Positions 769-48,230 of a stretch of DNA of 64,000 nucleotides are shown here, in pieces. This stretch comes from Candidatus Woesearchaeota archaeon (lineage in GTDB: Archaea > Nanobdellota > Nanobdellia > Woesearchaeales > JACPBO01), in NCBI GenBank assembly GCA_016180285.1, contig JACPBO010000002.1, positions 15,570-79,569 on the forward strand, given 5' to 3'. Every line of letters starts with the position of its first letter. Positions within the stretch are counted from its first letter, which is position 1. The notes under the pieces were generated by a model. The model searched no databases. It worked only from the letters and a program-made list of their open reading frames with translations, and was not told the DNA's origin. A program made the translations under genes and the position numbers.

Positions 769-1644
769 TTAACTGAAATAGCTTTCAAACGGATCAACTC
801 CTAAGTCAACACACTTTATTGATAACGGCATATAATCATAAGGAACTAGCATGACCATTGGCGTATATCCTGCCAAATGCCCTGCGGCAATTATGCCGCC
901 AATCCCTGCGCCGATGGCAGCAGAACCGCCAACAGTAATCAAAATGACATTCAAACCAGGCACAAACATCGCAAGGGTAGCCGCTGTTACCAGTCCGCCT
1001 GCTCCTGCTCCCGCGCCAACTCCTCCGCCAATTCCAAGACCTTTCCAAATCCCCTGCCAGTTAGTTTCTTTAGTGGCGTAAAGCACTGTAGCATATCTGA
1101 CTTTTGTTGAAATCTTGGTTTTATCTTCCCTGTAATACTTAATGACCTCGTCTGTTGCCGGAGCTCCATAAAAATATTCATAGTATTTTTCGTCTTTGCC
1201 AAGAACATTGTGCTCTGTAAGGTAAAGCGCAAATCCATCAATGTCCTCGGAAAACCCTTCAAACGTGTTTATTGAGCAGATAGCGCAGAACTCATATTTA
1301 TCTACAAAAGGGTTTAATGGCGGCTTTTCATTTGCTCCAAACTTGTCCCAGCATCTTTTCATTGTCTGGGCAAGCTGCTCCCTCACAGCATCTTTGTTCT
1401 TGGAGTCTTTTATTGTGATTGGAACTGCTTTGCATTCTTTTAAATCCTTTCCCATGCCTGTTTCTGCAGCGATCTTAACTGCAGTCCTGCATTTCTCGTC
1501 TTCGCCAACTCCGCGGGCGCTATTTGCCCATGCAGTAAGCCAGGGAATTCCAAAGAAAGCAAGAACAGCAATGCCAAGTATTAGGCTTACAAGCACAGCA
1601 TTCCATATATCGCTGGTTTTTCCAATCGCCTTTTTATTTCGCAT
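769..1644 (-). CDS. Membrane-anchored protein with class-III-signal-peptide-like N-terminus and glycine-rich C-terminal segment
   Basis: ORF track 291 aa; N-term MRNKKAIGKTSDIWNAVLVSLILGIAVLAFFG (basic residues then TM); C-terminal region GLGIGGGVGAGAGAGGLVTAATLAMFVPGLNVILITVGGSAAIGAGIGGIIAAG is low-complexity Gly/Ala-rich hydrophobic. Confidence 0.5.
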   Translation of the reverse strand: MRNKKAIGKTSDIWNAVLVSLILGIAVLAFFGIPWLTAWANSARGVGEDEKCRTAVKIAAETGMGKDLKECKAVPITIKDSKNKDAVREQLAQTMKRCWDKFGANEKPPLNPFVDKYEFCAICSINTFEGFSEDIDGFALYLTEHNVLGKDEKYYEYFYGAPATDEVIKYYREDKTKISTKVRYATVLYATKETNWQGIWKGLGIGGGVGAGAGAGGLVTAATLAMFVPGLNVILITVGGSAAIGAGIGGIIAAGHLAGYTPMVMLVPYDYMPLSIKCVDLGVDPFESYFS

Positions 1645-1753
1645 TAAAGACTCCTCCTAATTTCATGCCAACAATCACAAGAAGCAGTATAAAGAAAATT
1701 ACCGCAAGTATTATCACAATCAGCTCCTGAGTCATTGATTTTTTTGATTTCAT
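1634..1753 (-). CDS. Small pilin-like TM peptide (39 aa)
   Basis: Minus-strand ATG 1753..1751; MKSKKSMTQELIVIILAVIFFILLLVIVGMKLGGVFNAK; stop overlaps ATG of 769..1644 gene (A-ATG-CGA-AAT-AA). KKS-MTQE-hydrophobic pattern like other class-III-like N-termini in this window. Below ORF-track cutoff. Confidence 0.3.
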   Translation of the reverse strand: MKSKKSMTQELIVIILAVIFFILLLVIVGMKLGGVFNAK

Positions 1754-1853: not shown

Positions 1854-3605
1854 ATGCTCGAAAAGCTCGTTAGTTCAAAATGGGGGAAACGATTTATTAG
1901 TCTAGCTGGCGGCTTATTCATAGGCGCTTCTATTCTATCCAGCCCAATAACTGCATCTGCTGAAGAAGCTGTATTGACAGTACTCTGCCATGGAATTAAA
2001 GGCAGCTCTGGTGATATGAATAGGATAGAAGATGTTGTCAAAGACCAATCTTATGTGCTGAATGTTGATTACCCGAGCACAGAAAAAAGAATAAAATTTT
2101 TTTCATATGACTTGGATATTGTGATAAGAGATAGGATAAAGCTGCTTGAAAATAAAAATGTCAATGTAAACCGCATTGTTTTTGTTGGCCACAGCATGGG
2201 CGGCCTTGTTGGAAGACACTATATAGAATGCGGCAATGCTAGCTTTGCGGATGTTGTTTCGAAAGTCAAGGCAATTGTCATGATTGGAACGCCAAATCAT
2301 GGGAGCCCATTAGCTGATATTGTGTGCTATCATGCTGCCTTGGCAGGAGAAAGGTATGATGCAATTCCTCCTTCAATAATCGAACAGACAAAAGGCCCGA
2401 AATCTGACCTCTTAAAGATGCCTTCATTAACAGAGCCTCTTCACGCCAAGGGCATCAAAGGTTTCTTGGATGTGCTTACAAAACCTACAACGCTAATCAA
2501 CTTCGTCGATTCTAGCTGGGGAAGAAGAGCAGTTTATGATTTAAACTCAGCTCCAGACGGCTTTATTGAAAGTGAACTGAATAAATTTGGTTTAAAGCCG
2601 GGCGTTTATTATTGCGTTGTTAGAGGAAGTGATAATAATTTTGCAACAGGCTTTTTGATTAAAGGCCCTAGTGATGGCGTTGTCCCTGCTGAAAGTGCAG
2701 ATTTGATTGATAAAGTGAGCAATAAAGAAAATTACAGATTAGAAACTGTGAATGCAAATCATTTGAATATTACTGAAAACAAGGAAGTCATAAGAGTAGT
2801 TAAAGAAATTGTTGAGAGGGGAGGATCTAAAACTATTGTACTGCCTCCTTATGCAAAAATACCCCCTATCCCCAGGGGTTGGAGTTCAGAGGCACGTAAA
2901 GTTGAAATAATCCATAGCGAAAGAAAAGAGACTATTGATTCATTTGTGCATACGCTTTATAAAAACACAGTCGGGATGGAGTTTGTCCTTATTCCACCTG
3001 GACAATTTATCATGAGCAAACTGGATAACAAAGCTGATCGGAGTAGTGTGCAAATAACAAAACCATTTTATGTCGGTAATGTGTATGTAACGAAAGGTCA
3101 ATACGATGCTGTAACGAATAACAAAAACATTATTGACATCTATGGTGAAAATCCTTTTACCGCAAGCGGACCCGTTGAAGCCACTATAGATGATGCTCTA
3201 AATTTTTGCAGCATACTCTCGAAGAAAGAAAAAATAACATATCGTTTACCAATGGAAGCAGAATGGGAATATGTATTTTTCCCAGGACCTGCTACGAAAT
3301 ACTATTTTGAAGTCAATAATAATTATTTTAAAAACAAGGTCAAGACCAGCATCATAACAACGGCTTTATTTGACGAGTCACTAGCCAAAAGGTTAGGCGT
3401 AGATATAAATTGGATAAAATCTATACCTGTAGTGGGGTGTGGTAATAATGTGCAAGAGCTATGCCAAGACTCTGCAAAAGGAGGATATGTCACACGATAT
3501 TTTATCCAGCCAAGCAATACTGACAAACAATCAACAGGGCGCAATGAAATTGATATTAAAAACGCCGCCAATATATTTTTTCGCGTGGTAGTAGAATCAA
3601 AGTAG
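1854..3605 (+). CDS. Secreted PGAP1-like alpha/beta-hydrolase (lipase-like) fused to FGE-sulfatase (SUMF1-like) domain
   Basis: Signal peptide MLEKLVSSKWGKRFISLAGGLFIGASILSSPITASAEE. N-terminal half has HG...GHSMGG...GTPNHGSP (PGAP1-like/DUF676-type nucleophile elbow GHSMGG and downstream TPNHGS motif). C-terminal half FVLIPPGQFIMS...YVGNVYVTKGQY...YRLPMEAEWEYV matches the FGE-sulfatase/DUF323 signature (RLPTEAEWEYA). Confidence 0.7.
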   Translation: MLEKLVSSKWGKRFISLAGGLFIGASILSSPITASAEEAVLTVLCHGIKGSSGDMNRIEDVVKDQSYVLNVDYPSTEKRIKFFSYDLDIVIRDRIKLLENKNVNVNRIVFVGHSMGGLVGRHYIECGNASFADVVSKVKAIVMIGTPNHGSPLADIVCYHAALAGERYDAIPPSIIEQTKGPKSDLLKMPSLTEPLHAKGIKGFLDVLTKPTTLINFVDSSWGRRAVYDLNSAPDGFIESELNKFGLKPGVYYCVVRGSDNNFATGFLIKGPSDGVVPAESADLIDKVSNKENYRLETVNANHLNITENKEVIRVVKEIVERGGSKTIVLPPYAKIPPIPRGWSSEARKVEIIHSERKETIDSFVHTLYKNTVGMEFVLIPPGQFIMSKLDNKADRSSVQITKPFYVGNVYVTKGQYDAVTNNKNIIDIYGENPFTASGPVEATIDDALNFCSILSKKEKITYRLPMEAEWEYVFFPGPATKYYFEVNNNYFKNKVKTSIITTALFDESLAKRLGVDINWIKSIPVVGCGNNVQELCQDSAKGGYVTRYFIQPSNTDKQSTGRNEIDIKNAANIFFRVVVESK

Positions 3606-3660: not shown

Positions 3661-4188
3661 TCATCCCCCGCAAATATCCAATCTAAAATATAATAATCCG
3701 GATGCCGACTGCAGGGGCTGGCTTGCACTGTACCATGTTGTGCATTCGCCTTCAGTTATATTCAGCATTGTTTCTGTGCATTTTATTTCATTTGACATTC
3801 TGTTTGCTGTGCATGCTGTGAACTTAAATGCATTGCGTTTAAATGTTTGTTTTAAGGTTTCATCAAGGATGTCTGTGACAATAAAATTAACATGCTGGCA
3901 TGAATCTTCTGTTGCTGCTCCTCTCAAACAGCTTATATGCGCGCTTGATTTTGCGCAGTCTGCATAAAGCTCCCAGATCTCATAATTATTGCAGTCTGTT
4001 GTTGTTCCAAGCAATGTCGACAGCGTATTTGAAGCAAGCTCTGACTTTATGTATCTTTCCCTTGTTGTTGAAGCCGGCTTTGAAATGATATAAACCAGCG
4101 CAAAAAGCAGCACAAACGATATGAGTACAACTACAATGACCAGGCCAAGAACTTCAGTCTGTGATTTTTTATTCAGTCTGGCTGCCAT
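3661..4188 (-). CDS. Type IV pilin-like protein (class III signal peptide)
   Basis: N-term MAARLNKKSQTEVLGLVIVVVLISFVLLFALVYIISK: basic stretch, small residue, Q-x-E, then ~22 hydrophobic residues; cysteine-containing extracellular domain; last gene of a tight minus-strand array (overlaps upstream gene by 16 nt). Confidence 0.55.
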   Translation of the reverse strand: MAARLNKKSQTEVLGLVIVVVLISFVLLFALVYIISKPASTTRERYIKSELASNTLSTLLGTTTDCNNYEIWELYADCAKSSAHISCLRGAATEDSCQHVNFIVTDILDETLKQTFKRNAFKFTACTANRMSNEIKCTETMLNITEGECTTWYSASQPLQSASGLLYFRLDICGG

Positions 4189-4679
4189 GATTGTATTGTC
4201 AAGACTCCGAAATTTTTTCTGTCGTTTACAGCATCATAAATAATGATAGGGATATACGTGAGATAATATGTTGAGTAGTTGGCTGTTTTGTTGTAAAGAA
4301 CCCACTCGCCATCTGGCAGAGTAAGTGCTGGATAAATCTGGTTGATTTTTATTACGCTAAACCTGAAAAGGTCATAATAGTAGCTGTTATTCAAGTCTGG
4401 AGGATTAGGCGCTATTATTTTATTGAATGCCCCGATCTTATACAAATCAAAGCTTATGTAAGTGATATTTTTGTAAGTTTGCTGCAATTCAGGAAGGAAC
4501 TGTATCAGGTTTGCTATTTCAACTGACTGCTGCCTGAATGCCTCTTTTGTGCTTTCTTTTACTTCGCCAGTATAGAATTTCGCATAAAACACCATGCCGA
4601 TAAAGACCATTATGATAAATATGAAGATCACCATTATCGTTTCCCCCATTTTCATCAGCTGGGCTTTTGTTTTTTTCAT
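4173..4679 (-). CDS. Type IV pilin-like protein (class III signal peptide)
   Basis: N-term MKKTKAQLMKMGETIMVIFIFIIMVFIGMVFYAKF; 168 aa; abuts neighbours (4679/4681). Confidence 0.5.
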   Translation of the reverse strand: MKKTKAQLMKMGETIMVIFIFIIMVFIGMVFYAKFYTGEVKESTKEAFRQQSVEIANLIQFLPELQQTYKNITYISFDLYKIGAFNKIIAPNPPDLNNSYYYDLFRFSVIKINQIYPALTLPDGEWVLYNKTANYSTYYLTYIPIIIYDAVNDRKNFGVLTIQSWQPD

Positions 4680-4680
4680 T

Positions 4681-5757
4681 TTAGTAGATCAGAGGGCAGG
4701 AATTTGATTCTGCGTCTAAACTTTGTCGAATTAATGCAGTTGCATCGGCATTTATTGCATTCATTACACTTGTATCTGCTGAACCAAAACCGCCATCTAA
4801 TTTTGATATCATATCATCCAACGCGGTTGTTGTATAATATGAGCAATGTGTTGCATCTGCACCAATAAGCTCATTTCTGTTCTTGTACAGTTCAGCCATT
4901 ATCTTGTATTTCCTGAATGCTTTTTCCATGTTGCATTTGTAATTCTCGGCATCTTCAGCGAATACTGCTCCAATCAAAGAAGGCACTTCAAGAAAAGGAA
5001 GTGCATTACCCGGTTGTACTCGAAAATATTTTGAATTTGCATCATACTCATAAAATTTTACTTCGTCATCATTTATACTTACTGCAGTAATCTGATTTTT
5101 CATTTTATCAAAAAAAGAAGGTGCGTTTGTTATGTCGATCGTGCCTGTAGCAGCATTAAAAAATATAAATTTTATTTCATAATTATTTTTATCCTCCAGT
5201 TTATCGTCACTTTCAACTGTGAGCTTGCTGATATCAATTATCTCTTTTGATATTTTTTCAGGCAGCATATCATAAAACTCTTTTGCCTTGTCCTCTGTTG
5301 TTGCATCCTTGACTAAAATATACCTCACTTCCGGGCTCGTAATATACAGAAAATTCATAATAAAAAATGGCGATTTCCATTTCATTGTGTAAGTAACCAT
5401 CTCTCTCCCCTTTATGTAATCCGGCGAAAACAATACTGTTGTTGCCAATGACTCTGAAACTCCTGTTTTTTCTATGTTAAAAGAGGATGTTGCTTCTTCA
5501 CAGACAAAATTGATTCTTTTATTTGGGGTTCTTATCAGATTTTCCCTGCTTTCCTCTGTGCCGAGCTTTGAGTGCATTATTATTGTCCTCAAATTGTTCC
5601 TTACATCTTTCGCCAAGTTAGTTTCTGCAAGCCCTCTCTGCCAGTTGACAATTGCAATAAAGAATAGAAGTATAAGCGAGCCTGCAATTAGCACAAAGAT
5701 CCAGTTGAACTGAACCTCGATAACAGCTTTTCTGTTAAGATTCCGAGATTTCAACAT
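4681..5757 (-). CDS. Type IV pilin-like protein (class III signal peptide), 358 aa
   Basis: N-term MLKSRNLNRKAVIEVQFNWIFVLIAGSLILLFFIAIV; overlaps upstream gene by 23 nt. Confidence 0.55.
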   Translation of the reverse strand: MLKSRNLNRKAVIEVQFNWIFVLIAGSLILLFFIAIVNWQRGLAETNLAKDVRNNLRTIIMHSKLGTEESRENLIRTPNKRINFVCEEATSSFNIEKTGVSESLATTVLFSPDYIKGREMVTYTMKWKSPFFIMNFLYITSPEVRYILVKDATTEDKAKEFYDMLPEKISKEIIDISKLTVESDDKLEDKNNYEIKFIFFNAATGTIDITNAPSFFDKMKNQITAVSINDDEVKFYEYDANSKYFRVQPGNALPFLEVPSLIGAVFAEDAENYKCNMEKAFRKYKIMAELYKNRNELIGADATHCSYYTTTALDDMISKLDGGFGSADTSVMNAINADATALIRQSLDAESNSCPLIY

Positions 5758-6262
5758 AGTTGCCCCTGCCTGTTATTCTGAATGTGGCTCTGCCAGAAGA
5801 GGCATCTGCGCATAAAAACAAAGGGTTTGCAGAATCTGTAAGATCTGGGTCCGGAATATTGATTTTTCCCGCATAAAATGATTCAACTGATGCCTTGCTT
5901 TTAACCAGAAATATATTTTTCTTAACGCCTGAGCTGATGCTGTTTTTTATTATGGAGTTCAAGCTAGCAGAAGGTGATGAACTGCCTATCAGGCCATCAT
6001 CAACAAAGCATATCTGATTATAACCCGCAGGAAGCTTTAAATCCAGAAGCTCGGAACTGCCTGCCTCTGTTGTTATTGCGCTTATATCCCTCTCCAAGGA
6101 TGTCTTAAACCTTATAAAGTCCGCCTCTGTCGACTTCACCATTAAATCGCGTATCGCCTTGAATCCAAAAATCATAACTAACGCTATAACTAGCAATGCA
6201 AGTATGAAAACAAACACAAGATTTTGAACTTCTGCTTTTGCCATGTTTTTATTCCGCATCAA
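5735..6262 (-). CDS. Type IV pilin-like protein (class III signal peptide)
   Basis: N-term MMRNKNMAKAEVQNLVFVFILALLVIALVMIFGF; overlaps giant gene end (6249) by 14 nt, indicating co-transcription. Confidence 0.55.
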   Translation of the reverse strand: MMRNKNMAKAEVQNLVFVFILALLVIALVMIFGFKAIRDLMVKSTEADFIRFKTSLERDISAITTEAGSSELLDLKLPAGYNQICFVDDGLIGSSSPSASLNSIIKNSISSGVKKNIFLVKSKASVESFYAGKINIPDPDLTDSANPLFLCADASSGRATFRITGRGNYVEISES

Positions 6263-9200
6263 GATTTGACAGGATTTTCTTTGCTTGGGCTGCTGTTATT
6301 AATTTCTGGTCTGCAAGATTCAACAAAAGAGACCTTGCGTCTGATTTTGCGATTTTATCCAGCTTTATCAGCTGCGATAATATTTCTTCTGCAAGTCCTC
6401 TTGTGATTTTCTTGGTTTTAAGAAGATTGGAGAATGTTCTGCTGAGGTCTTGCTTGGCTATTTTCCTTGATTCTGCCAATGCAATCAATTTCTTTGCATA
6501 ATCCCCTTTCAAATTATTCTTTATAACCCCTTTCAATCTTTTAAATGCCTCATCCTTATCTGTTTCTTTCTTTAATGCAGCTGGTTTTTCTTTTGTTTTA
6601 ATCTCTTTTTTCGGTTTTTCAGCCAATATTCTTAATTTAGCAAAAATATCTCCCTTTACTTCAGGCTTTATTTTTGTTATTCCCGGATTTTCTTCTGCAA
6701 CGTCTATTTGTTCAACCTGCTTTTCTTCAGTTTTTGCTTCGGTTGGCTTTTCAGCTATTTTTTCAGGAGTATTTTCTTCTTCAAAGGCATTGAAAACCTT
6801 TTCCCTTTCTTTTTTCTCTGCTGCCCGCTTTATTTCCATGGATCGATGCGCAGGCCTTTGCATAAATCCCGGTTTTGCTTCCGGTCTTGACAGTGTTATT
6901 GGCTGCTGCATTCTTGGCGAATAGTGGGGCTTTTTCTTCTGCAGATAAGGCTTGTAGTAATATTCATAGAATGCATAGCCTCCTCCGCCGAGTGCTGCAA
7001 TTATCAGAACAGCCAATAATATCGGGAACCAATTGAAGCCCCCTGATTTTTCAGGATTTGGTTCAGTTGTTGAGCCGGTTGTTTTTTCAGTGCACTGGCT
7101 ATTAAGGCAGTAGTTTGTTGCGCAATCTCTTGAAATTAAGCATGTTTTTCCAACATGGCATTTGGGGCAGTTTGATCCGCCGCAGTCCTTGTCAGTTTCA
7201 TCATTGTTTTTTACATTGTCGCTGCATGTCTGGTTTATGCATTTTTTATTCGGGCTGCAATAATTTGTTTTGCAGTCACTGTTGGACAGGCAATTTTTAT
7301 CCGGGCTGCATGGGTCGCACCCTCCGCCGCAGTCTATGTCTGTTTCATCTCCGCTTAATTTAGCATCCTTACAGCTGTCGATGTTTTTTTTGCATATTCC
7401 TGACTTGCACTTTAAATTAGTTGCGCAATCGTTGTCTTGTATGCATTTCTTGCCTTCTGGGCAGTCTGAGCAGCTTCCGCCGCAGTCTATGTCTGTTTCA
7501 TCTCCATTCCTGATATCATCGTTGCATGAAGGATTGGCGCATTTCTTAGTTGAATTTGGGCAATAGCCGCTCAGGCAGTCTGAATTTATCAGGCAATTCT
7601 TGCCGCTAATGCAACCCGCGCATTGTTTGCCGCAGTCCACATCTGTTTCTGTGTCGCTTTCAAATAAAAGATCTATGCAATGGCCTGGTAGCTTTGATAT
7701 ATCGACTGTCACGCCATCGCTGGACATAACGTCGCTTGTCCAGTTCGCATAATCAACTGCCTTTACTTTAAATTTGTATGTTCTTAGGTTTGTTAAGTTC
7801 AGCTTTGTTCCATTGCTCTGCATCCAGTTTGGCTCATTGTCTTTCGTTAACCAATACCATTGGTCATCTATTGAGCTTGTTGTCCAATTCACAACCACAT
7901 TCAAATAGCTGTCTTCCAGTAAATATTGATAGTACCATATCCCCGATCCTGCATCAGTGCCGTGCCATTTTGCCTGCAGTCTGTCAGAGAAATATGAGTA
8001 TTGCGTATTATTAGCTAAATTGCTGGAATCATCAACATAGCTCATATTCGGCTTCTTTGTGTCAACTAAGAAAGTGATTGTTACTGGATCAGACCATAAT
8101 CCTGCAGCGATGCACTTCGCATAATATGTGTTTGAGCCTTCCTGCTGACCGGGGGTGTGCTTGTGGCGGTAGCCTGTTGTTTCTGAGAATAAATAGATCA
8201 TTGAAGAGCTGCTAATTCCCCAAAAACATTCTGCATTTTTATTAGTGCCTATATCTATCTTTGTTTGGTTCATATTGCTGTATGCAAGTGTATAAACTGC
8301 TATTGTGATTGGAGCGCTAAGGTTGACTGCAAAGTTTATGGCGGATGTTGCTGATGCCCAACCGGCGAGATTCTCGCATGCAACGTAATATGTATAGCTT
8401 CTCTCTTCCAGCGGAAGGTAAAATATCTGGCGGTGTATTGTATTGAATTGCTTTTGTGCATAGCTTGAGAAGTTCCCTTCCATCAGGGCATAGTTCTGTG
8501 TTGTATTGCTGTATTTGCAGAGTGTTGCCTCGTTTGTCTGAACATTCAATGTGACATTTGGAGGGAATTCCACCACGGGCGATGGGTTTGCATATGCTGT
8601 TATTATTTGCGGAGGCGATGAATCAACTCTTATGATGAAGGTCACATTCACCAGGCCTCTGATGGTATCATTGCATCTTACGTAAAAGTTATGGTTGTTT
8701 TCGTCTGCTAAGTAGATGTTGTATAATTGATGCGCTGTTGAATTTGAACTATCAAAGCCGGCCATGTTGCTGAATGACTGAACCGATATATCAAGGGTTT
8801 GCCTGCATTGCACAGCCTTGTCTGTTAGCAGCGTTATATTGAACCTTTGTGTCGATGAAACATTGTAAGGTGGCTGTATCATTGTTATCACTAATGGAAT
8901 TGCATCGATTTCGAACAAGGTGCGCGAGGATACTGTGTTGCCAGCATAATCGTGTGCTGTTATTACCAGCGTTTTACTGCCATCTAAAAATTGCTGAGAC
9001 TTTGTAAAAAGCTTGTTAGATGATGATGAAAATGTTGAAATGTTTAATGACGCCCCATTGACAGTTACGTCATCCAAGAAAACTTTTTCACTGAAGTTGA
9101 ATATTATTGCCATTGTTGCTTCTAAAGAATAATTGCCATCTTTCGGGCTCTGCAAAGTCACTGTTGGCGGAGTTGTATCAACAACAAATGCTTTTGCAAA

Positions 9201-11498
9201 TACTGTTGGCATTAAAGTTTCAAGATCATCTTTTGCCCTCACTGAAAAAGTATAGCTGCCCTGGCCTAATGCTGCCGTTGGAATAAATGTATATGTTTTA
9301 CGATCGCCTGATGAATTGGTGCTGAATGTTATGTCTGCTGTTGAGCTGTTTATCTTCGATAATATTATCGTTGCAGGCTCATCAAATATCACAGTTATTG
9401 TTGGCAAGGCATTTTTTGTGTAAATAACATCATTTACTTCGGTGCCTTCTGTTATGATTATGTTAAGTATGTGTGGCGGAGTTGGAACTGGTGTAATAAG
9501 TACGCTTTGCACGATTCCAAGATTATGGCTAGGATCTTCTGTGTAATATTTTATTATATTGTTGTCTGACGTTGCCGGGTCATTGTCGCTTGTAAGATTG
9601 AATAAAAATGTCTGGATTGCGCCATCATAGATAGAAACAGTATAATCATTTACATAAAGCTTTAATTGTGTTGTTGAATTGCTGTAAGGATGGCCTGCCG
9701 CGCCGCATTCCGCCTCTCCAGGGCCATAATGGCAAAGATATGTTCTGTAGCTGCCTGGCGCCAAAACACTCCTGCCATAGTCTGATTTGGATGTTTTATC
9801 GTAAATCTGAATGTCCAGATATTCGTATGAGTTGTCTGTTGCCTTTACCGGCACAATTGTTGTTGTTGGATTGAAGTAGTCTGCTTCACAGCTGTTGTTG
9901 CCATCTGCGCAGTCCTGCGCATTATTGTTGTCTGTGTTTTTATGGCACTTGCCATTTATATATTCGCATACCCCTATCTTGCACGAATCTGCGCCTGATG
10001 TTGTAATTCTATTATTTGAATCCAGGGTTATGTGTTGGGTTCCGCATTCTGTTTGCGTATAATTCACGCAGGTCATTGCATTGCAGCTAATAGCTGCTGT
10101 GCCATTGACATAACAGGGATAATTTGCTGTTGATAGTGCTGTAGCTTTTCCCAAAGTGCATATGTCAAATATCTCATTGTATGACTGAAGATTTGAGGCT
10201 GAGCTTGTTCCCTTAAGATTGCATAACTCGCAATTGCTTCTGTCAAGATCAGCGCATACTCCTATTCCGAGTTCTGCAATTGTCGGTATCCATTTGCAGT
10301 TTCCAACGTTGCAGTTGTTGCTGCTGCATGCTGATTCTGACCTGTAATCATAGCAGAGCATGCTTGGGCTGCACTCATAGCAATAGTTTGTAATTGAAGG
10401 CGACCTGTCATAGAAGCAGTATTTTGGAGAAACTGCCCCTTCACAAAGGCTTTTACTAAAGAAAATCCCATATGGATTTGCGCTTGCATTTGAGCATGCC
10501 CCTGCTTTAAGGCATTGCGCTGTTGCTCCTTCTGCCGCGCATATATCTGCATAAGTTGATGAACAGGATGGATCCGGGCCGACTAGCTTGTTGTTATCAT
10601 TGCAAGTATATGCTTTGTTGAAGCGGCTGCCATAACTTGTTTTTGCATTTAATAAAAAGGCATTTTCATCTGCGCTGAATCCTTTTTTATCAGTCAAATA
10701 AGTTTTAAATTCCAGATAGCTTGAATTATGAAGGCAGAATTTGTCGCTGCTAAGCTTATTCCAGCATTCTACATTGCCTGTTGTAGTGTTTAAGTAGCGC
10801 GGATCTGAAGCTCCAGATAAGGAATATTCTGCAACTATCTTGTAAGTGTAGTTTGTGTCCCATAGCACATCGCCGTCAATGTAGAAATTGTTTAGCGTTG
10901 TTGCAATCTGCGTGTATGAAGCGCAGTTGCCCGTAATGCATTTTGAAATGATGTATTGGCTGACAGTGCATGATGCGTAAAAGTTCAGCTGCACTCCAAG
11001 TTCGCCTTTGGGATATGTTGTTGTTGCATTAGGCGGCTGCTTATATGTTACATCATTGCATGCTCCTGTTGGCGGAGGCGGTGGCGGAGTAGTGGCGCAT
11101 ACATCTGTGCACGTTCTTCCGTTATAGGCTGTGAATGTTGAGGTTGATGTTGTTGGGCATTCTGATTCTATCACATAGCTTGTTCCGCCAGGGCAGCAAC
11201 ATCCCACGTTTGTGCATTTTGATATCGCAGAACAACCTTGTGTGCCGCTGTAATAATTGGCATTGCAGTTTGCATAATCTTGCGGGCCATAGCCAGTTGC
11301 AGCAGAATAATAATCAGAGTATGATGCTTCCGGTGTCGGGCAGCAGTTTGCTAATGCTGAGTCTGTGCAGATCCTTGACCCCGCATTTGGATTGTAGCAG
11401 CATTGCTGCGCCTGTGGAAATGTGAATGTAGCCAGTAATGTGATGAATGCTGCTGCGAAAATTACGAACACCGCTAGTTTTATTTTTTTATTTTTCAT
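6249..11498 (-). CDS. Giant (1749 aa) cysteine-rich, N-glycosylated surface adhesin-like protein with C-terminal TM anchor and K/E-rich cytoplasmic tail
   Basis: Signal peptide MKNKKIKLAVFVIFAAAFITLLATFTF; Cys-rich N-terminal region with poly-Pro (PPPPPPTG). Many N-x-S/T sequons; Ig/FN3-like segments (TPPTVTLQSPKDG). Four tandem ~40-aa Cys repeats (NGDETDIDCGGxCxxC...GKxC...DC...C). TM FNWFPILLAVLIIAALGGGGYAFYEYYY, then ~220-aa charged tail with repeated K-[IL]-[ST]-x-x-x-A-x-x-I-L-S-x-L motifs. Confidence 0.8.
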   Translation of the reverse strand: MKNKKIKLAVFVIFAAAFITLLATFTFPQAQQCCYNPNAGSRICTDSALANCCPTPEASYSDYYSAATGYGPQDYANCNANYYSGTQGCSAISKCTNVGCCCPGGTSYVIESECPTTSTSTFTAYNGRTCTDVCATTPPPPPPTGACNDVTYKQPPNATTTYPKGELGVQLNFYASCTVSQYIISKCITGNCASYTQIATTLNNFYIDGDVLWDTNYTYKIVAEYSLSGASDPRYLNTTTGNVECWNKLSSDKFCLHNSSYLEFKTYLTDKKGFSADENAFLLNAKTSYGSRFNKAYTCNDNNKLVGPDPSCSSTYADICAAEGATAQCLKAGACSNASANPYGIFFSKSLCEGAVSPKYCFYDRSPSITNYCYECSPSMLCYDYRSESACSSNNCNVGNCKWIPTIAELGIGVCADLDRSNCELCNLKGTSSASNLQSYNEIFDICTLGKATALSTANYPCYVNGTAAISCNAMTCVNYTQTECGTQHITLDSNNRITTSGADSCKIGVCEYINGKCHKNTDNNNAQDCADGNNSCEADYFNPTTTIVPVKATDNSYEYLDIQIYDKTSKSDYGRSVLAPGSYRTYLCHYGPGEAECGAAGHPYSNSTTQLKLYVNDYTVSIYDGAIQTFLFNLTSDNDPATSDNNIIKYYTEDPSHNLGIVQSVLITPVPTPPHILNIIITEGTEVNDVIYTKNALPTITVIFDEPATIILSKINSSTADITFSTNSSGDRKTYTFIPTAALGQGSYTFSVRAKDDLETLMPTVFAKAFVVDTTPPTVTLQSPKDGNYSLEATMAIIFNFSEKVFLDDVTVNGASLNISTFSSSSNKLFTKSQQFLDGSKTLVITAHDYAGNTVSSRTLFEIDAIPLVITMIQPPYNVSSTQRFNITLLTDKAVQCRQTLDISVQSFSNMAGFDSSNSTAHQLYNIYLADENNHNFYVRCNDTIRGLVNVTFIIRVDSSPPQIITAYANPSPVVEFPPNVTLNVQTNEATLCKYSNTTQNYALMEGNFSSYAQKQFNTIHRQIFYLPLEERSYTYYVACENLAGWASATSAINFAVNLSAPITIAVYTLAYSNMNQTKIDIGTNKNAECFWGISSSSMIYLFSETTGYRHKHTPGQQEGSNTYYAKCIAAGLWSDPVTITFLVDTKKPNMSYVDDSSNLANNTQYSYFSDRLQAKWHGTDAGSGIWYYQYLLEDSYLNVVVNWTTSSIDDQWYWLTKDNEPNWMQSNGTKLNLTNLRTYKFKVKAVDYANWTSDVMSSDGVTVDISKLPGHCIDLLFESDTETDVDCGKQCAGCISGKNCLINSDCLSGYCPNSTKKCANPSCNDDIRNGDETDIDCGGSCSDCPEGKKCIQDNDCATNLKCKSGICKKNIDSCKDAKLSGDETDIDCGGGCDPCSPDKNCLSNSDCKTNYCSPNKKCINQTCSDNVKNNDETDKDCGGSNCPKCHVGKTCLISRDCATNYCLNSQCTEKTTGSTTEPNPEKSGGFNWFPILLAVLIIAALGGGGYAFYEYYYKPYLQKKKPHYSPRMQQPITLSRPEAKPGFMQRPAHRSMEIKRAAEKKEREKVFNAFEEENTPEKIAEKPTEAKTEEKQVEQIDVAEENPGITKIKPEVKGDIFAKLRILAEKPKKEIKTKEKPAALKKETDKDEAFKRLKGVIKNNLKGDYAKKLIALAESRKIAKQDLSRTFSNLLKTKKITRGLAEEILSQLIKLDKIAKSDARSLLLNLADQKLITAAQAKKILSNLDAE
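6940..7660 (-). repeat. Tandem ~150-bp DNA repeats encoding 4 Cys-rich CGG-type modules within the giant gene
   Basis: Near-identical segments, e.g. ccgccgcagtctatgtctgtttcatctcc at ~7321 and ~7471; spurious plus-strand ORFs 7115..7566 echo the periodicity (PPQSMSVSSP twice). Confidence 0.6.
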
Positions 11499-14111: not shown

Positions 14112-15077
14112 TTATTTTAATTTTGATTTAATTTCTTGCTCACTTGGAAGCTTGATTTTATATTCGGCAACAAAAATTTCCTTTTTTAAACCACCCAATG
14201 CATAATGCACTGTTTCATCATCTTTAGTTTTGCAGATTATTAAGCCAATCGGCAAACGCTGGCCATTCTTCAATTTATTCTCCTTATACCAGTTAAGATA
14301 AGAGTACATCTGGCTCACATGAGAATGCTTAAACTCCTCAGTTTTTATTTCTACCAAAATATAGCACAATAATCCGGCATGGAACAACTCTAAATCAATT
14401 TTATCATAATTGCCTGCGATCAGTATTGGAACCTCTCTTCTGCCAATAAAGAAATCTGAGCCTAGTTCTTGGAGTAATTTTTCAAATTTATTCAATAGGG
14501 CATCTTTAAACTCCGTTTCTTTAGAATTTTCATCTAAGCTTAAAAAATTAAAATGATAGACCTCTTTGAAAATTTGTTCGGGTTCAATGGTTTTTAGAGG
14601 AAGCCTCTTTTTAATGGCTAATGTGCCTTTTTGGGAGGCCTTTTGGTATAGCTTCTTTTTGATTTCCTGATGAACAATTCTGACACTCCAGCCATTTTGA
14701 ATTATTTGTTGCCCATAAAAATCTCTTTCCTCTTTTTTTGCAAGCTTAATTAATTCAACAATGTGGGACCAGCTTAATTGTGCAGACACTGTCTGCACAA
14801 TTGGATATGTTCTGTAGAATTGGACTATCTCAAACATTAATCTCCTAGAAAAGCCTAAATCGTGCGCTAAGTTATCTAAGAGGTATTGCCCATAATCTGC
14901 CCTTTCTTTATGCTGCAATTCTTCCCTTACTATTCTCTCTCCTATCTGCCAGTATGTTTGCACCCTTACATTATCTACTGCCTTATAGGCCTGTGCTTTG
15001 GCCTTGTCAAGCAAAAATCGTATATCTTTAAGTACCTGATCATATTCTTCAATTTTTGATAAATCGGTTTTTTTCAT
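14112..15077 (-). CDS. DUF1016/YhcG-like PD-(D/E)xK nuclease family protein
   Basis: N-terminal ...KAKAQAYKAVDNVRVQTYWQIGERIV... matches the conserved DUF1016 N-domain (YWxIGxxI); C-terminal ...ELFHAGLLCYILVEIKTEEFKHSHVSQMYSYLNWY contains D...E-x-K nuclease-like core. Predicted cytoplasmic, embedded in the surface-protein array. Confidence 0.6.
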   Translation of the reverse strand: MKKTDLSKIEEYDQVLKDIRFLLDKAKAQAYKAVDNVRVQTYWQIGERIVREELQHKERADYGQYLLDNLAHDLGFSRRLMFEIVQFYRTYPIVQTVSAQLSWSHIVELIKLAKKEERDFYGQQIIQNGWSVRIVHQEIKKKLYQKASQKGTLAIKKRLPLKTIEPEQIFKEVYHFNFLSLDENSKETEFKDALLNKFEKLLQELGSDFFIGRREVPILIAGNYDKIDLELFHAGLLCYILVEIKTEEFKHSHVSQMYSYLNWYKENKLKNGQRLPIGLIICKTKDDETVHYALGGLKKEIFVAEYKIKLPSEQEIKSKLK

Positions 15078-26212: not shown

Positions 26213-29200
26213 ATGGAAGCAAGCGAACAGATAAGAAGATTTGGTGAATTTTTTGATTTGATTTATGGGGCGGCAATAGTTGAAAACCTAAGAAAAGGCA
26301 ATAAATTCTTGATTGTTGACTTTGCAGAGCTGATAAAATTTGATCCAGAGCTTGCAGAGCAGCTTTTGGAAGAGCCCGATGAAGTGGTAAGGGCTGCTGA
26401 GCTTGCTATTGAAGAGTCGGGTCGTGAAGGTGATCTGAAAAAATTCAAGGTGCGTTTCAGAAATCTGCCTAAAACCCAGCAGATCATGATCAGAAACATA
26501 AGAAGCAACCACATAGGAAAACTGTTTTGGACAGAGGGCATTGTGAGGCAGAAATCTGATGTAAGGCCCCAGGCAGTTGTTGCGAAATTTGAATGCCCCG
26601 CTTGCGGAAATACTATTTCGGTTCCACAGCTCGATAAAAAATTTCGCGAGCCAAGCAGGTGCGGCTGCGGAAAAAAAGGAAGATTTAAGCTGTTAAGCAA
26701 GGAGCTTGTTGATGTGCAGGGTATTGTTTTGGAAGAAGCACCGGAAGATTTGGAAGGTGGGGACCAGCCAAAAAGGATGCAGATTTTTCTGCAGTGTGAT
26801 TTGGTCAGCCCTTTAAGCGAGAAGAGAACAAGCCCCGGAAGCAAAATACGCATTGGCGGCATTATAAAAGAAGTGCCCATAACATTGCAGACAGGCGGCC
26901 AATCCACAAGGTTTGATTTGCTGATTGAAGCCAATTGCATTGAAGGTGTAGAAGAGAATTTCTCCGACATCACAATAAGCCATGAAGAATTAAAGGCAAT
27001 CAAAGAACTTGCAGAAGACCCAAAAATCTATGCAAGGCTTATAAACTCGATTGCGCCAAGCATATATGGTCATGATAGAATAAAAGAGGCCCTTATTCTG
27101 CAGTTAATGGGAGGATTAAAGAAGGAAAGAAAAGACGGCGTATCAATAAGAGGCGATATCCACATTTTACTTATTGGAGATCCTGGGAGCGGAAAAAGCC
27201 AATTGCTCAAGAGGGTTTCAAAAATCTCTCCTAAAGGAAGGTATGTCAGCGGCAAGGGAGTCAGCGGAGCCGGTTTGACCGCAACTGTTGTGAAAGACGA
27301 ATTCCTGCGCGGCTGGAGCCTTGAAGCTGGCGCGCTTGTTTTGGCAAATAAGGGATTGTGTGTTACTGGCGATACAGCTATTCTACTCGCCAACGGAAGT
27401 GTTATTCCGATGAAACAAGTTTATGAAGAGCACCTTAAAGGAAAAGAGGTCTGTGTTCAATCCTTGGATGCAAAAACATTCAAAATATGCGAACAAAAAG
27501 TTTTAGGTGTTTCGCGCAGAATTGCAGAGAAACTTTTTGAAATTAAGTTTGACACTGGAGATAAACTGCATATAACGCCAGAGCACCCTCTTCCTGTTTG
27601 GGACAACGGCCTTCGTTGGGTGCCTTGCGGAAGATTAAAATCCGGTGCTTCAGTGGTTTTGCCTACGGAATTTATTTCAAAAAAAGATGTTAAAAATATC
27701 CTTCTTCTTGAACTTTGCGGCATGATTGCAACAGATGGGCATTTAACAAAGAAAAAATATGGCATAAGCTTTTATTCAACTAAAGAGTGGATGATTGAAA
27801 GAATAAAATATCTTGTTAACGCCTGTTTTGGAAAAGAGATGCATGTTCATAAAAATAACCGCGGGTCTCTGCATGCGCATATAGGTTCTAAAGAGATTCA
27901 TGAGAAAATAAAAAATTTTGGGATACCTGTTGGCAAGAAAAATGGTTTGACAGATAATGTTCTGTTAAATCTTTCACATGATGACATCAAGGCATTCATT
28001 ATCGGTGCGGTAAATGGAGATGGATCAATTTCAAATAGAAAAGGCGGCGGAATCGTTTCTCTAATAACGCAGAATTTCCAAACCGCTGAAACTTACAGAA
28101 AACTATTGCGCAAGATTGGCCTGATTGGCAGAATAAGAAAAATAAATTCAAGGGGCGGTGGAATAGTAAAAGAAGGCACATACACCATATTCCATGTTTG
28201 CATTACCGGCAGAGAAAATATTGCGAGGTTATGGGACTCGCGCCTTGAGCCAGCAAAACTTGCTGCGCTGAATAAGATTCTTAAACGCAGATCCATGGAC
28301 GGAAGAATTCCTCATGTTAATGATCTGATTGAGAGTGTAAGAGTTGAACTAAAACACGGTCAAAAACAAGCATTGTATATGAACAGCATAAAACAAAGTC
28401 AGCTTGATGGCGGATATGGTGTTAGAAGAGGAACTTTGCAAAGAGCATTGGGGGCATTGGCTGCTTTGCTGATATTGCCTGCAAATTCTTTGCAAACGTT
28501 GAAAAATGTGGCGCAGGATAGCGTACACATAGGCAAAATAACAGGCATAAGTGATATTCCTCCTGCAGAAGTATTTAACCTGCAAACCGATGCAAAAGAA
28601 GGCCCCAATTATATTGCAAATTTTATACCTGTTCATAACTGTATGATCGACGAGCTCGACAAGATGTCTACGGAAGACAGAAGCGCGATGCACGAGGCAT
28701 TGGAGCAGCAATCAGTGAGCATCTCAAAAGCAAATATACAGGCAACATTAAGGGCTGAAACAACTGTTTTGGCTGCTGCTAATCCTAAATTCGGAAGGTT
28801 TGACCCTTATGGCGAGCCTATTTCCAAACAAATCAATTTGCCCACTACATTGATCAACAGGTTTGATTTGATTTTTGCAATAAAGGATCTTCCGCATCCT
28901 GACAGAGATGAAAAAATGGCGAAGTTCATTCTAGGGATGCATCAAAATCCTGATGTTGAGAATGTTGAATTGGATACAAAACTTTTGAGAAAATATATTG
29001 CTTATGCTAGGCAGAATGTGCATCCTAAGCTTTCTGATGGCGCAAGCGATGAAATACAAAGCTACTATCTCAAGATGAGGGCTTCCGGCACTGTTGAAGG
29101 TGAGATGAAATCAATACCGATATCCGCAAGGCAGCTGGAAGCGTTAGTCAGGCTATCTGAAGCTTCAGCAAAAGTAAGGCTGAGCGATGCAGTAACAAAA

Positions 29201-48193: not shown

Positions 48194-48230
48194 TGGAACA
48201 GACTGGAGCAGCTGGGTTAATTCCAGCGTT

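What the first reader, a model, noticed from the sequence alone, without database searches (positions are those of the whole stretch)
1854..3605. Secreted fusion of a PGAP1-like lipase domain with an FGE-sulfatase domain; a paralogous lipase domain is embedded in the giant adhesin (~53160..53560)
The N-terminal half carries GHSMGG and TPNHGS motifs of PGAP1-like/DUF676 alpha/beta hydrolases. The C-terminal half carries the FGE-sulfatase (SUMF1/DUF323) signature including RLPMEAEWEY. The same lipase-type domain (VILVHGF…FVAHSLGG…IASPNKGS) sits on the extracellular side of the 2364-aa protein just before its stalk and TM. An extracellular lipid-acyl hydrolase delivered on an adhesin, plus a free secreted copy, is suggestive of host or prey membrane attack or remodelling.
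Basis: partly seen in the sequence, partly recalled or inferred. Interest (0 to 1): 0.55.

Follow-up and report, generated by a model that had tools for sequence, protein, structure and literature searches.

The report
Secreted archaeal lipase-like enzyme, lectin tail

Summary
ORF 1854..3605 (+) encodes 583 aa: a Sec-type signal peptide, a PGAP1/DUF676-type alpha/beta hydrolase with an intact Ser114-Asp274-His303 triad, and a C-terminal FGE-sulfatase-type domain. A second hydrolase module, 27% identical with the same triad, lies at 53166..53850, about 75 aa before the first C-terminal membrane helix of the giant protein.

The window is from a Woesearchaeota (DPANN) archaeon. NCBI already holds the identical protein, auto-named "SUMF1/EgtB/PvdO family nonheme iron enzyme". 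That name is probably misleading. The 51%-identical orthologue lacks both catalytic cysteines of real FGEs. In the window copy that whole segment is deleted, and only the N-terminal ~56% of the Pfam model matches. FGE-type C-type-lectin folds are common non-catalytic ligand binders.

Close relatives keep the hydrolase but swap the tail: FGE-like, an unknown 160-aa domain, none, or VWA plus a membrane helix. My best reading is a secreted serine esterase/lipase with an exchangeable, here decaying, targeting module.

The substrate is unknown, and the giant's copy sits beside the archaeon's own membrane, not at the adhesin tip. The "2364-aa" protein is the back part of a ~3,830-aa gene split by a frameshift. 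I rate it a new variant of a known kind, of modest interest.

The parts
1854..3605 (+). Whole gene: 583-aa secreted alpha/beta hydrolase joined to an FGE-like domain. It is identical to an NCBI Woesearchaeota protein.
   Evidence: ORF list; Pfam; exact match P0001 with its NCBI name.
1854..1961 (+). Predicted Sec signal peptide, aa 1-36: K10/K12/R13, hydrophobic aa 14-32, then ASA|EE.
   Evidence: Hydrophobic stretch found. The ASAEE site is conserved in P0002-P0004. No signal-peptide predictor was available, so this is an inference from the sequence.
1962..2828 (+). PGAP1/DUF676-type alpha/beta-hydrolase domain, aa 37-325. Features: oxyanion HG (aa 46-47), nucleophile Ser114 in GHSMGG (nt 2193-2195), PNHGS (aa 147-151), Asp274 in SDGVV (nt 2673-2675), His303 in NANHL (nt 2760-2762).
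   Evidence: Pfam; invariant columns in A2; AlphaFold core pLDDT 80-93; Foldseek hits are all alpha/beta hydrolases.
2316..2603 (+). Helical cap or lid insertion, aa 155-250, between PNHGS and the next core strand.
   Evidence: Helices in the model, with low pLDDT at aa 182-223. It is 47% identical to the orthologue, against 65-69% for the core.
2829..2975 (+). Linker, aa 326-374, including a PRGWSSE motif that is also found just before the FGE-like domain of the relatives P0006 and P0007, whose gene neighbourhoods look bacterial.
   Evidence: Alignment A1; low pLDDT; gene neighbourhoods of P0006 and P0007.
2976..3281 (+). Conserved N-terminal half of the FGE-sulfatase (FGE-type C-type-lectin-like) domain, aa 375-476, including RLPMEAEWEY.
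   Evidence: Pfam FGE-sulfatase, profile positions 4-146 of 255; 50% identical to the orthologue; pLDDT 60-90.
3282..3602 (+). Eroded C-terminal half of the FGE-like domain, aa 477-583. GNVWEW has become NNVQEL, and about 28 aa including the RGG strand and the active-site position are deleted. Only the final FRVVV remains.
   Evidence: 20% identity and 41 gap columns against P0003; not matched by Pfam; pLDDT below 50; no other reading frame encodes the missing part.
53166..53850 (+). Distantly paralogous alpha/beta-hydrolase (lipase-like) module of the giant protein, aa 1646-1873 of the 2364-aa ORF. Features: VHGF, Ser1717 in AHSLGG (nt 53379-53381), PNKGS, Asp1819 (nt 53685-53687), His1849 (nt 53775-53777).
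   Evidence: triad conserved in P0278, P0018, P0017, P0279 and P0281; AlphaFold pLDDT 82.8, with secreted bacterial lipases as the nearest PDB structures.
53979..54329 (+). Cys-rich knot GCSCGNGYCG..CPQDCA (53979-54047), followed by three hydrophobic helices (54069-54143, 54177-54242, 54261-54329). A K/E-rich tail follows, predicted to be cytoplasmic.
   Evidence: Translation; hydrophobicity scan; coordinates; the knot is conserved in homologues.
43775..55325 (+). The full giant surface-protein gene of about 3,830 aa: ORF 43775..48193 plus ORF 48231..55325, split by a frameshift at about 48150-48170. The N-terminal signal anchor is aa 38-56 of the first ORF.
   Evidence: Three-frame translation shows a repeat unit continuing across the frame change; repeats D8, D11 and D14; Pfam PQQ/NHL/LamG domains.

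Best explanation
The gene encodes a Sec-exported, catalytically competent serine hydrolase of the lipase/esterase type (PGAP1/DUF676-like alpha/beta fold). It would cleave acyl-ester, or possibly thioester, bonds outside the cell using Ser114, Asp274 and His303. The C-terminal FGE-sulfatase-type domain is not an enzyme. It is an FGE-type C-type-lectin-like module of the kind that elsewhere binds ligands, acting as an exchangeable targeting tail for the hydrolase. In this genome its ligand-facing C-terminal half has largely decayed, so the tail may be vestigial. A distantly related hydrolase module is held close to the cell's own membrane at the base of a giant surface protein.

Shown: the domain identities, the conserved triad, the loss of the FGE active site, the tail swapping among orthologues, and the topology read from the sequence.

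Inferred: secretion, hydrolytic activity, the binding role of the tail, and the substrate. My best guess for the substrate is ester-linked lipids or acylated surface molecules of neighbouring cells or debris.
For: - Pfam places the N-terminal domain in PGAP1, DUF676 and Palm_thioest, and the C-terminal domain in FGE-sulfatase, all above their curated cut-offs.
- The HG, HSxGG, PNxGS, DGxV and H columns are invariant across five close homologues, the giant's module and a distant bacterial relative.
- The AlphaFold hydrolase core is confident, and all Foldseek hits are alpha/beta hydrolases, including lipases, thioesterases and phospholipase PlaB.
- The giant's module models at pLDDT 82.8. Its nearest PDB structures are secreted lipases: BlEst2 and the Proteus, Acinetobacter, Pseudomonas and Burkholderia lipases.
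- In the alignment to Streptomyces FGE 2Q17, the orthologue P0003 has G/gap where the CxxxxC pair lies. The window copy deletes that segment.
- No NCBIfam model for FGE, EgtB, OvoA or PvdO comes near its cut-off; for example, PvdO scores 15 bits against 500.
- No sulfatase was found among the window ORFs of at least 150 aa scanned with Pfam.
- A profile of the FGE-like domain hits non-catalytic structures as strongly as real FGEs: TvpA, PorK/GldK, pFGE.
- The best matches among 1.84 billion representatives are proteins with 2-12 tandem FGE domains, or kinase-FGE fusions.
- The literature describes the FGE fold as a subtype of the ligand-binding C-type-lectin fold, used as a C-terminal sensor (PMC5006420; PMC10907252).
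- Tail swapping at the same locus: FGE-like in P0001 and P0003, an unknown 160-aa domain in P0002, none in P0004, and VWA plus a membrane helix in P0005.
- The hydrolase core is 65-69% identical to the orthologue, while the FGE C-half is 20%.
Against: - No substrate or activity evidence exists.
- The closest solved structures share no more than 18% identity and span lipases, thioesterases, esterases and even non-hydrolases, so 'lipase' is only a class guess.
- The PGAP1 and DUF676 matches cover only about a quarter (PGAP1) to half (DUF676) of their profiles.
- The eroded tail still keeps a 107-codon open frame, so it could have a new function rather than none.
- With only 56 sequences in the alignment, the low AlphaFold confidence for aa 476-563 may reflect a thin alignment rather than disorder.
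- The binding role of the FGE-like domain is by analogy only.
- Secretion is inferred without a dedicated predictor.
Confidence: 0.6

Rival explanations
1. Both hydrolases are phospholipase/lipase weapons or harvesting tools that breach or remodel the membrane of a host or prey cell, one secreted freely and one carried on an adhesin. The archaeon's own ether lipids would make it naturally immune.
For: - PGAP1-like domains are used by bacterial type VI secretion Tle4 phospholipase effectors; the literature linking 'PGAP1-like' and Tle4 was found.
- The organism is a DPANN archaeon, a group thought to scavenge lipids from other cells (PMC7242380).
- The giant protein has adhesin-type propellers, NHL and LamG domains.
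- The gene lies among surface-protein genes.
- The variable tail fits target-specific adaptation.
- No adjacent immunity-like gene would be needed if self lipids are ethers (my inference).
Against: - No activity or substrate data exist.
- Known DPANN hosts are archaea with ether lipids that lack acyl esters (background knowledge).
- The giant's module is about 75 aa from the archaeon's own membrane helix, not at the distal tip.
- The targeting tail of the free copy is half eroded.
- One close relative has no tail at all (P0004).
- The synteny with surface genes is seen only between closely related genomes, with neighbours 71-86% identical, and it breaks on one side in L005.
Confidence: 0.2
2. 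A carbohydrate or polymer esterase. The hydrolase removes acetyl or other acyl groups from polysaccharides, cell-wall polymers or polyesters. The lectin-like FGE domain acts as a carbohydrate-binding module, following the usual plan of a catalytic domain plus a binding module.
For: - The C-type-lectin-like fold is a general ligand and sugar binder (PMC5006420).
- Weak Pfam hits include cutinase.
- PDB profile and fold neighbours include cinnamoyl, feruloyl and chlorogenic acid esterases.
- Swapping of modular tails is typical of secreted polymer-degrading enzymes (my inference).
Against: - The top family matches are lipid-related (PGAP1, DUF676, palmitoyl thioesterase, LCAT).
- The giant's module is closest in fold to true lipases.
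- There is a long helical cap of about 95 aa, as in interfacial lipases.
- No glycoside hydrolases or sugar transporters lie nearby.
Confidence: 0.13
3. The database annotation is right: the C-terminal half is a working SUMF1/EgtB/PvdO-type metalloenzyme, a formylglycine-generating or sulfoxide-synthase-like oxidase, fused to a hydrolase.
For: - FGE-sulfatase Pfam hit above its cut-off.
- NCBI's name for the identical protein.
Against: - The catalytic Cys pair is absent in the intact orthologue and the segment is deleted here.
- There is no DinB-like iron-binding domain as in EgtB and OvoA; the N-terminus is a hydrolase.
- NCBIfam equivalog scores are 15-20 bits against cut-offs of 350-500.
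- No sulfatase was found in the window.
- Only 56% of the Pfam model is matched.
Confidence: 0.02
4. The odd C-terminal half is a hypervariable region written by a diversity-generating retroelement, as in TvpA-type FGE-fold variable proteins that are common in DPANN.
For: - A profile of the FGE-like domain hits TvpA 2Y3C at E 2e-49.
- Diversity-generating retroelements are expanded in DPANN.
- The divergence is concentrated at the C-terminus, where the variable regions lie.
Against: - No template-repeat-like copy of 3282..3605 exists anywhere in the 64-kb window, nor one overlapping the orthologous gene in the ±8-10 kb around it in L001 and L004.
- No reverse transcriptase was found among the window ORFs scanned.
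- The difference from the orthologue includes 41 gap columns over more than 100 aa, not adenine-specific substitutions.
- The protein is identical on two independent contigs.
Confidence: 0.02

Closest known systems
PGAP1/Bst1 GPI inositol deacylase and the DUF676 putative serine esterases (Pfam PF07819, PF05057)
   Same: Alpha/beta-hydrolase fold with the GHSMGG nucleophile elbow and a following PNxGS motif. The Pfam scores exceed the curated cut-offs.
   Different: Only the central quarter (PGAP1) to half (DUF676) of the profiles match. This protein is archaeal, small, Sec-secreted and soluble, whereas PGAP1 is a multi-pass eukaryotic ER membrane protein. No GPI substrate is expected, and there is no evidence of orthology.
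Type VI secretion Tle4/TplE PGAP1-like phospholipase effectors
   Same: A PGAP1-like serine hydrolase used outside the producer cell. This is the precedent for membrane-attack use of the fold (literature found).
   Different: There is no type VI secretion system, no VgrG/PAAR partner and no immunity gene here. Export is by a Sec signal peptide. No significant direct sequence match was seen in the PDB searches. The resemblance is one of possible mechanism only.
Secreted bacterial lipases of family I and the Bacillus type (BlEst2 6WPY, Proteus mirabilis 4HS9, P. aeruginosa 1EX9, B. subtilis LipA 1I6W)
   Same: These are the best structural neighbours of the giant's module (TM about 0.55-0.6) and weak profile hits for the family. 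They share the AHSxGG/GHSxGG elbow and extracellular location.
   Different: Identity is no more than 18%. There is no lipase chaperone and no calcium-site evidence. The modules here are fused to an FGE-like tail or embedded in a giant membrane-anchored protein.
FGE-type C-type-lectin fold proteins: FGE/SUMF1, pFGE/SUMF2, PvdO, Treponema TvpA, PorK/GldK
   Same: Pfam FGE-sulfatase domain with the RLPxEAEWEY motif. A profile of the domain family matches all of these at E 1e-30 to 1e-50.
   Different: The Cys pair of true FGEs is lacking. The window copy has also lost the GNVWEW and RGG segments. It most resembles the non-catalytic members (pFGE, TvpA, PorK) in being without an active site. No fusion to an alpha/beta hydrolase was seen in any other listed relative.
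Giant membrane-anchored surface proteins of DPANN archaea (e.g. nanohaloarchaeal 'SPEARE' proteins)
   Same: A multi-thousand-residue extracellular protein with adhesion-type repeats, a C-terminal membrane anchor and a cytoplasmic tail, in a DPANN genome. Enzymatic domains in such giants have been proposed and disputed (PMC10266531).
   Different: The domain content is different (PQQ/NHL propellers, LamG, hydrolase). No VirB4-like ATPase was detected. The hydrolase module here has a conserved triad in five homologues, so it is better supported than the disputed SPEARE protease.

Membership tests
Alpha/beta-hydrolase superfamily, serine hydrolase | Nucleophile elbow G/A-x-S-x-G with a conserved Ser | tested here: met
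   GHSMGG (Ser114) and AHSLGG (Ser1717) are invariant in alignments A2 and A4.
Alpha/beta-hydrolase superfamily, serine hydrolase | Acid and His of the triad in the canonical order after the nucleophile | tested here: met
   Asp274 (SDGVV) and His303 (NANHL) in the target; Asp1819 and His1849 in the giant. These are invariant columns and are aligned to each other by BLASTP.
Alpha/beta-hydrolase superfamily, serine hydrolase | Alpha/beta-hydrolase fold | tested here: met
   AlphaFold core pLDDT is 80-93 for the target and 82.8 overall for the giant's module. The listed top-50 Foldseek PDB hits are almost all alpha/beta hydrolases.
Pfam PGAP1 (PF07819) / DUF676 (PF05057) | Score above the family's gathering cut-off | tested here: met
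   Target: PGAP1 36.1 bits against 24.3, and DUF676 35.1 against 20.3. Giant's module scanned alone: DUF676 22.9 against 20.3, with PGAP1 not reported. The matches cover only part of the profiles.
Lipase/phospholipase (function) | Demonstrated hydrolysis of acyl-ester lipids, or orthology to a characterised lipase | not testable with these tools
   The nearest characterised proteins share no more than 18% identity. No NCBIfam equivalog matches.
Pfam FGE-sulfatase domain (PF03781) | Score above the gathering cut-off over the whole domain | tested here: inconclusive
   The score of 40.4 bits against 23.3 is met, but only profile positions 4-146 of 255 are matched. The C-terminal half is diverged and shortened and is modelled at pLDDT below 50.
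Formylglycine-generating enzyme (SUMF1-type) | Pair of catalytic, copper-binding cysteines (CxxxxC) near the C-terminus | tested here: not met
   In the alignment to 2Q17 and 6MUJ, orthologue P0003 has no Cys at either position. In the window protein the segment is deleted.
Formylglycine-generating enzyme (SUMF1-type) | Presence of sulfatase substrates (genes with a CxPxR motif) in the genome or neighbourhood | tested here: not met
   No sulfatase Pfam hit among the window ORFs of at least 150 aa that were scanned. The rest of the genome was not seen.
EgtB/OvoA sulfoxide synthases | N-terminal DinB-like iron-binding domain preceding the FGE-like domain; NCBIfam equivalog score | tested here: not met
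   The N-terminal domain is an alpha/beta hydrolase. The OvoA model scores 14.8 bits against 400 for the window protein; in orthologue P0003, EgtB and OvoA score about 26 against 360-400.
PvdO | NCBIfam equivalog cut-off | tested here: not met
   15.4 bits (window protein) and 69 bits (orthologue) against a cut-off of 500.
DGR (diversity-generating retroelement) variable protein | Template/variable repeat pair with adenine-specific mismatches and a nearby reverse transcriptase | tested here: not met
   No repeat involves 3282..3605 in the window, and none overlaps the orthologous gene in the ±8-10 kb around it in L001 or L004. No RVT domain was found among the ORFs scanned. The rest of the genome was not seen.
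Type VI secretion Tle4 effector | Type VI secretion context (VgrG/PAAR/Hcp) and a cognate immunity gene | tested here: not met
   The window is archaeal (TBP, MCM, PolD, Cdc6). The neighbours have no Pfam hits, and none are type VI secretion components.

The most novel reading that the evidence does not exclude
Woesearchaeota may exploit the 'lipid divide'. Because their own membranes are ether-linked, they could display and secrete acyl-ester lipases without any immunity protein. They would use them, with exchangeable lectin-like targeting tails and a giant adhesin, to open or harvest the ester-lipid membranes of bacterial partners. That would imply a bacterial host range for a DPANN archaeon and a self/non-self discrimination built into membrane chemistry.
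Probability: 0.1. Interest if true: 0.7.

Novelty: new variant of a known kind. Interest (0 to 1): 0.3.

Why it matters
How DPANN archaea, which generally cannot make their own lipids, get material from other cells is an open question. Extracellular hydrolases with intact active sites are concrete, testable candidates for that interface. This is especially true of one fixed next to the membrane anchor of a giant surface protein.

The analysis also corrects a database name that probably misleads. The protein is not a plausible 'nonheme iron enzyme'; its FGE-like half is an inactive, partly decayed lectin-like module.

Finally, it shows a small family in which one hydrolase core carries different C-terminal tails at the same chromosomal position. 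That is a pattern expected for target-specific adaptation. On present evidence, however, the parts are ordinary domain types and the biology is unproven.

Tried and rejected
1. FGE, EgtB or PvdO enzyme function. Rejected: the Cys pair is absent or deleted, NCBIfam scores are far below the cut-offs, and no sulfatase is in the window.

2. DGR (diversity-generating retroelement) hypervariable tail. Rejected locally: no template-like repeat and no reverse transcriptase.

3. A frameshift hiding the missing FGE C-half in another reading frame. Rejected: the other frames are full of stops, and tblastn with the orthologue's C-terminus finds only the in-frame N-part.

4. Assigning a precise enzyme subfamily. 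This failed. The PDB sequence profile gave only weak hits to assorted lipases and esterases. Foldseek gave generic alpha/beta hydrolases at no more than 18% identity. NCBIfam gave nothing for the giant's module.

5. Calling the flanking small ORFs type IV pilin-like. Their basic N-terminus plus one hydrophobic helix looks like an archaeal class III signal by eye, but Pfam gives no support even at E<=5. I leave them as uncharacterised small membrane or surface proteins.

6. Taxonomy of the closest FGE-like relatives. The cluster look-up returned no organism names. The gene neighbourhoods of P0006 and P0007 look bacterial but are not conclusive.

It says nothing about archaeal distribution.

8. 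Literature searches for DPANN or Woesearchaeota lipases found nothing specific.

9. Synteny as functional linkage. I did not rely on it: the genomes compared are close relatives (neighbours 71-86% identical), and the downstream side differs in L005.
Full report

ORF 1854..3605 on the + strand is an intact 583-codon gene with an ATG start. Pfam finds two domains above their curated cut-offs.
- An N-terminal alpha/beta hydrolase: PGAP1 at 36.1 bits (E 7.8e-9), DUF676 at 35.1 bits (E 1.3e-8), and Palm_thioest just above its cut-off.
- A C-terminal FGE-sulfatase domain at 40.4 bits (E 3.5e-10).

The second lipase-type module in the 2364-aa ORF is also real.
- The motifs VILVHGF, FVAHSLGG and IASPNKGS are present.
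- Scanned alone, the module hits DUF676 at 22.9 bits against a cut-off of 20.3.
- BLASTP against the target gives 27% identity at E 4e-8, plus a second aligned piece that lines up the Asp and His regions.
- The AlphaFold model has mean pLDDT 82.8 and pTM 0.85.

The catalytic Asp (nt 53685) and His (nt 53775) lie in that extra stretch.

**Organism and database status**

The window encodes TBP, an intein-containing MCM, PolD DP1/DP2, Orc1/Cdc6, RNase P p30 and a tRNA-splicing endonuclease, so it is archaeal. The identical protein is already in NCBI from a Candidatus Woesearchaeota archaeon (DPANN). It is auto-named 'SUMF1/EgtB/PvdO family nonheme iron enzyme'. I found no paper that discusses it.

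**The hydrolase half**

An alignment of the five close homologues, the giant's module and a distant bacterial relative has several invariant columns:
- the oxyanion HG;
- H-S-x-G (Ser114);
- P-N-x-G-S;
- D-G-x-V (Asp274);
- the His (His303).

AlphaFold models the core at pLDDT 80-93, with a long, less confident helical cap at aa 155-250. All Foldseek PDB hits are alpha/beta hydrolases, including the lipase MAJ1, thioesterases, FphH and phospholipase PlaB. None exceeds 18% identity. A family profile against PDB sequences gives only weak hits to assorted lipases and esterases. No NCBIfam equivalog matches. The fold and the catalytic machinery are well supported. The substrate is not.

A basic N-terminus, a hydrophobic stretch at aa 14-32 and a conserved ASA|EE site indicate Sec export. 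I infer this from the sequence, as no predictor was available.

**The FGE half**

Only profile positions 4-146 of 255 match. The full-length orthologue P0003 (594 aa, 51% identical) has a complete FGE-like domain. When it is aligned to the Streptomyces FGE structures 2Q17 and 6MUJ, the enzyme's 'LCHDSYC' cysteine pair faces 'GTLDG--G'. In my understanding that pair is the defining catalytic, copper-binding feature of FGEs, and it is absent.

The window copy shows further losses.
- GNVWEW has become NNVQEL.
- About 28 residues are deleted, including the RGG strand and the active-site position.
- Identity to the orthologue falls from 65-69% in the hydrolase core and 50% in the FGE N-half to 20% in the C-half, with 41 gap columns.

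No other reading frame encodes the missing piece. NCBIfam models for PvdO, EgtB, OvoA and GldK score 15-20 bits against cut-offs of 350-500. No sulfatase was found in the window.

A profile of the domain family matches non-catalytic structures as strongly as real FGEs. These include Treponema TvpA, PorK/GldK lipoproteins and pFGE. An exhaustive HMMER scan of 1.84 billion representatives shows that the closest relatives of aa 365-490 are mostly large proteins with 2-12 tandem FGE-sulfatase domains, or kinase-FGE fusions. The literature treats the FGE fold as a subtype of the ligand-binding C-type-lectin fold. It is often a C-terminal sensor attached to an effector domain (PMC5006420; PMC10907252). 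I conclude that the tail is a non-catalytic binding-type module, and that the NCBI name is probably misleading.

**A swappable tail**

Close relatives of the hydrolase are very few. Four clusters were found among 1.84 billion representatives, and five proteins in the 5.8-billion-sequence index. They share the signal peptide and the hydrolase but differ after about aa 325:

| Protein | C-terminal tail |
|---|---|
| P0001, P0003 | FGE-like domain |
| P0002 (88-90% identical core) | unrelated ~160-aa domain with no Pfam hit |
| P0004 | none |
| P0005 | VWA domains plus a membrane helix |

P0001, P0003 and P0002 sit at the same chromosomal position between the same neighbours. P0004 shares only the upstream neighbours. 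P0005 lies in a VWA/FHA/PP2C/kinase cluster. Between the window and L001 the flanking genes are 71-86% identical, while this gene is only 51% identical. So it evolves faster than its surroundings, mostly in the cap, the linker and the tail.

I considered a diversity-generating retroelement as the cause and rejected it locally.
- There is no template-like repeat of 3282..3605 in the window, and none overlaps the orthologous gene within ±8-10 kb of it.
- No reverse transcriptase was found.
- The differences include long indels rather than adenine-site substitutions.

**The giant protein**

ORF 48231..55325 starts with TTG and has no signal peptide. Three-frame translation shows a repeat unit ('...NNETMWYNNSVEIVSLRN' then 'TKNENWTFSVRVYDG...') running from the frame of ORF 43775..48193 into the frame of the 2364-aa ORF at about 48150-48170 (repeats D8, D11 and D14). 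The two ORFs are therefore one gene of about 3,830 aa, with an N-terminal signal anchor at aa 38-56 of the first ORF. The gene is split by a non-triplet deletion, which is either an assembly collapse in repeats or a real lesion.

The gene encodes PQQ-type and NHL propellers, LamG and Ig-like domains. The rest of its layout is as follows.
- The hydrolase module comes near the C-terminal end of the extracellular part.
- About 45 aa later comes a conserved Cys-rich knot, GCSCGNGYCG..CPQDCA.
- Three hydrophobic helices and a K/E-rich tail complete the protein.

The arrangement of module, knot and membrane helix recurs in five DPANN protein fragments at 36-50% identity with the triad conserved. Its best structural neighbours are genuine secreted lipases: BlEst2 and the Proteus, Acinetobacter, Pseudomonas and Burkholderia lipases. 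The module is on the predicted outside, but close to the archaeon's own membrane rather than at the far end of the adhesin.

**Mechanism and rivals**

Most likely (about 0.6): a secreted serine esterase/lipase whose C-terminal FGE-type lectin-like domain is a non-catalytic, exchangeable targeting module that is decaying in this genome, plus a distant paralogue fixed at the base of a giant surface protein.

It remains possible (about 0.2).
- For it: PGAP1-like domains do this job in bacterial Tle4 effectors (literature found), and DPANN cells are thought to take lipids from others (PMC7242380).
- Against it: known DPANN hosts are archaea whose ether lipids lack acyl esters, the giant's module is membrane-proximal, and the free copy's tail is eroded.

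A carbohydrate or polymer esterase with a lectin-like binding module is a reasonable alternative (about 0.13). A working FGE-type metalloenzyme and a retroelement-diversified variable protein are each unlikely (about 0.02).

**Novelty and verdict**

Both domain types are well known, and the protein is already deposited. What is new is the combination.
- No other alpha/beta-hydrolase-FGE fusion appeared among the best 120 hydrolase relatives or the best 150 overall relatives.
- The tail is swapped at a fixed locus.
- A conserved hydrolase module lies next to the membrane anchor in DPANN giant proteins.

I class it as a new variant of a known kind, with modest interest (0.3). The most novel reading not excluded is lipases used against ester-lipid bacterial partners by an archaeon that is intrinsically immune because of its ether lipids. 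I give it about 10%.

Noticed in passing
window 43775..55325 (junction about 48150-48170): The 1472-aa ORF and the 2364-aa ORF are one giant gene of about 3,830 aa, split by a non-triplet deletion or frameshift inside a repeat unit. The N-terminal signal anchor is in the first ORF. This could be an assembly collapse in repeats or a genuine pseudogene.
   Followed up: partly
window 769..1644(-), 1634..1753(-), 3661..6262(-), 6249..11498(-); L001 and L004: The target gene lies between runs of small ORFs, each with a basic N-terminus and a single hydrophobic helix. By eye this looks like an archaeal class III signal, but Pfam gives no hit even at E<=5. Next to them is a 1749-aa Cys-rich membrane-anchored protein. 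Order and sequence (71-86% identity) are conserved in two other Woesearchaeota contigs.
   Followed up: partly
window 26213..29512 (+): The MCM helicase gene carries an intein with a LAGLIDADG homing-endonuclease domain (Pfam Intein_splicing plus LAGLIDADG_3 inside the P-loop domain).
   Followed up: no
window 42145..43242 (-): A free-standing 365-aa ORF with a weak LAGLIDADG_3 match (E 1.6e-5), lying just upstream of the giant surface-protein gene.
   Followed up: no
window 14112..15077 (-): A YhcG/DUF1016 PDDEXK nuclease gene (E 5e-39) sits between the surface-protein cluster and a PKD-domain protein. It may be a mobile or defence-related element.
   Followed up: no
L088 6001..6999 and L087 6001..7038 (relatives of the FGE-like tail): The closest stand-alone relatives of the FGE-like tail share its PxGW(S/T)xE lead-in. 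One sits between two caspase-like Peptidase_C14 genes and the other next to a TIR-WD40 protein. These are contexts typical of bacterial sensor-effector conflict systems.
   Followed up: partly
P0132-P0277 (hits): Many of the best matches to aa 365-490 are very large proteins (up to 4,448 aa) with 2-12 matched stretches. In the eight checked with Pfam these are 2-6 tandem FGE-sulfatase domains, some joined to NHL/PPC or kinase domains. Their taxonomy is unknown because the look-up returned no organism names.
   Followed up: partly
L006 1..10960 (P0005 locus): A relative of the hydrolase, fused to VWA domains and a C-terminal membrane helix, lies at the end of a VWA/FHA/PP2C/Ser-Thr-kinase gene cluster. 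This is a different context from the Woesearchaeota locus.
   Followed up: no
window 6249..11498 (-) and 48231..55325 (+): Both giant surface proteins end with a membrane helix followed by a long K/E-rich, coiled-coil-like tail that is predicted to be cytoplasmic. The shared tail design has no known function.
   Followed up: no
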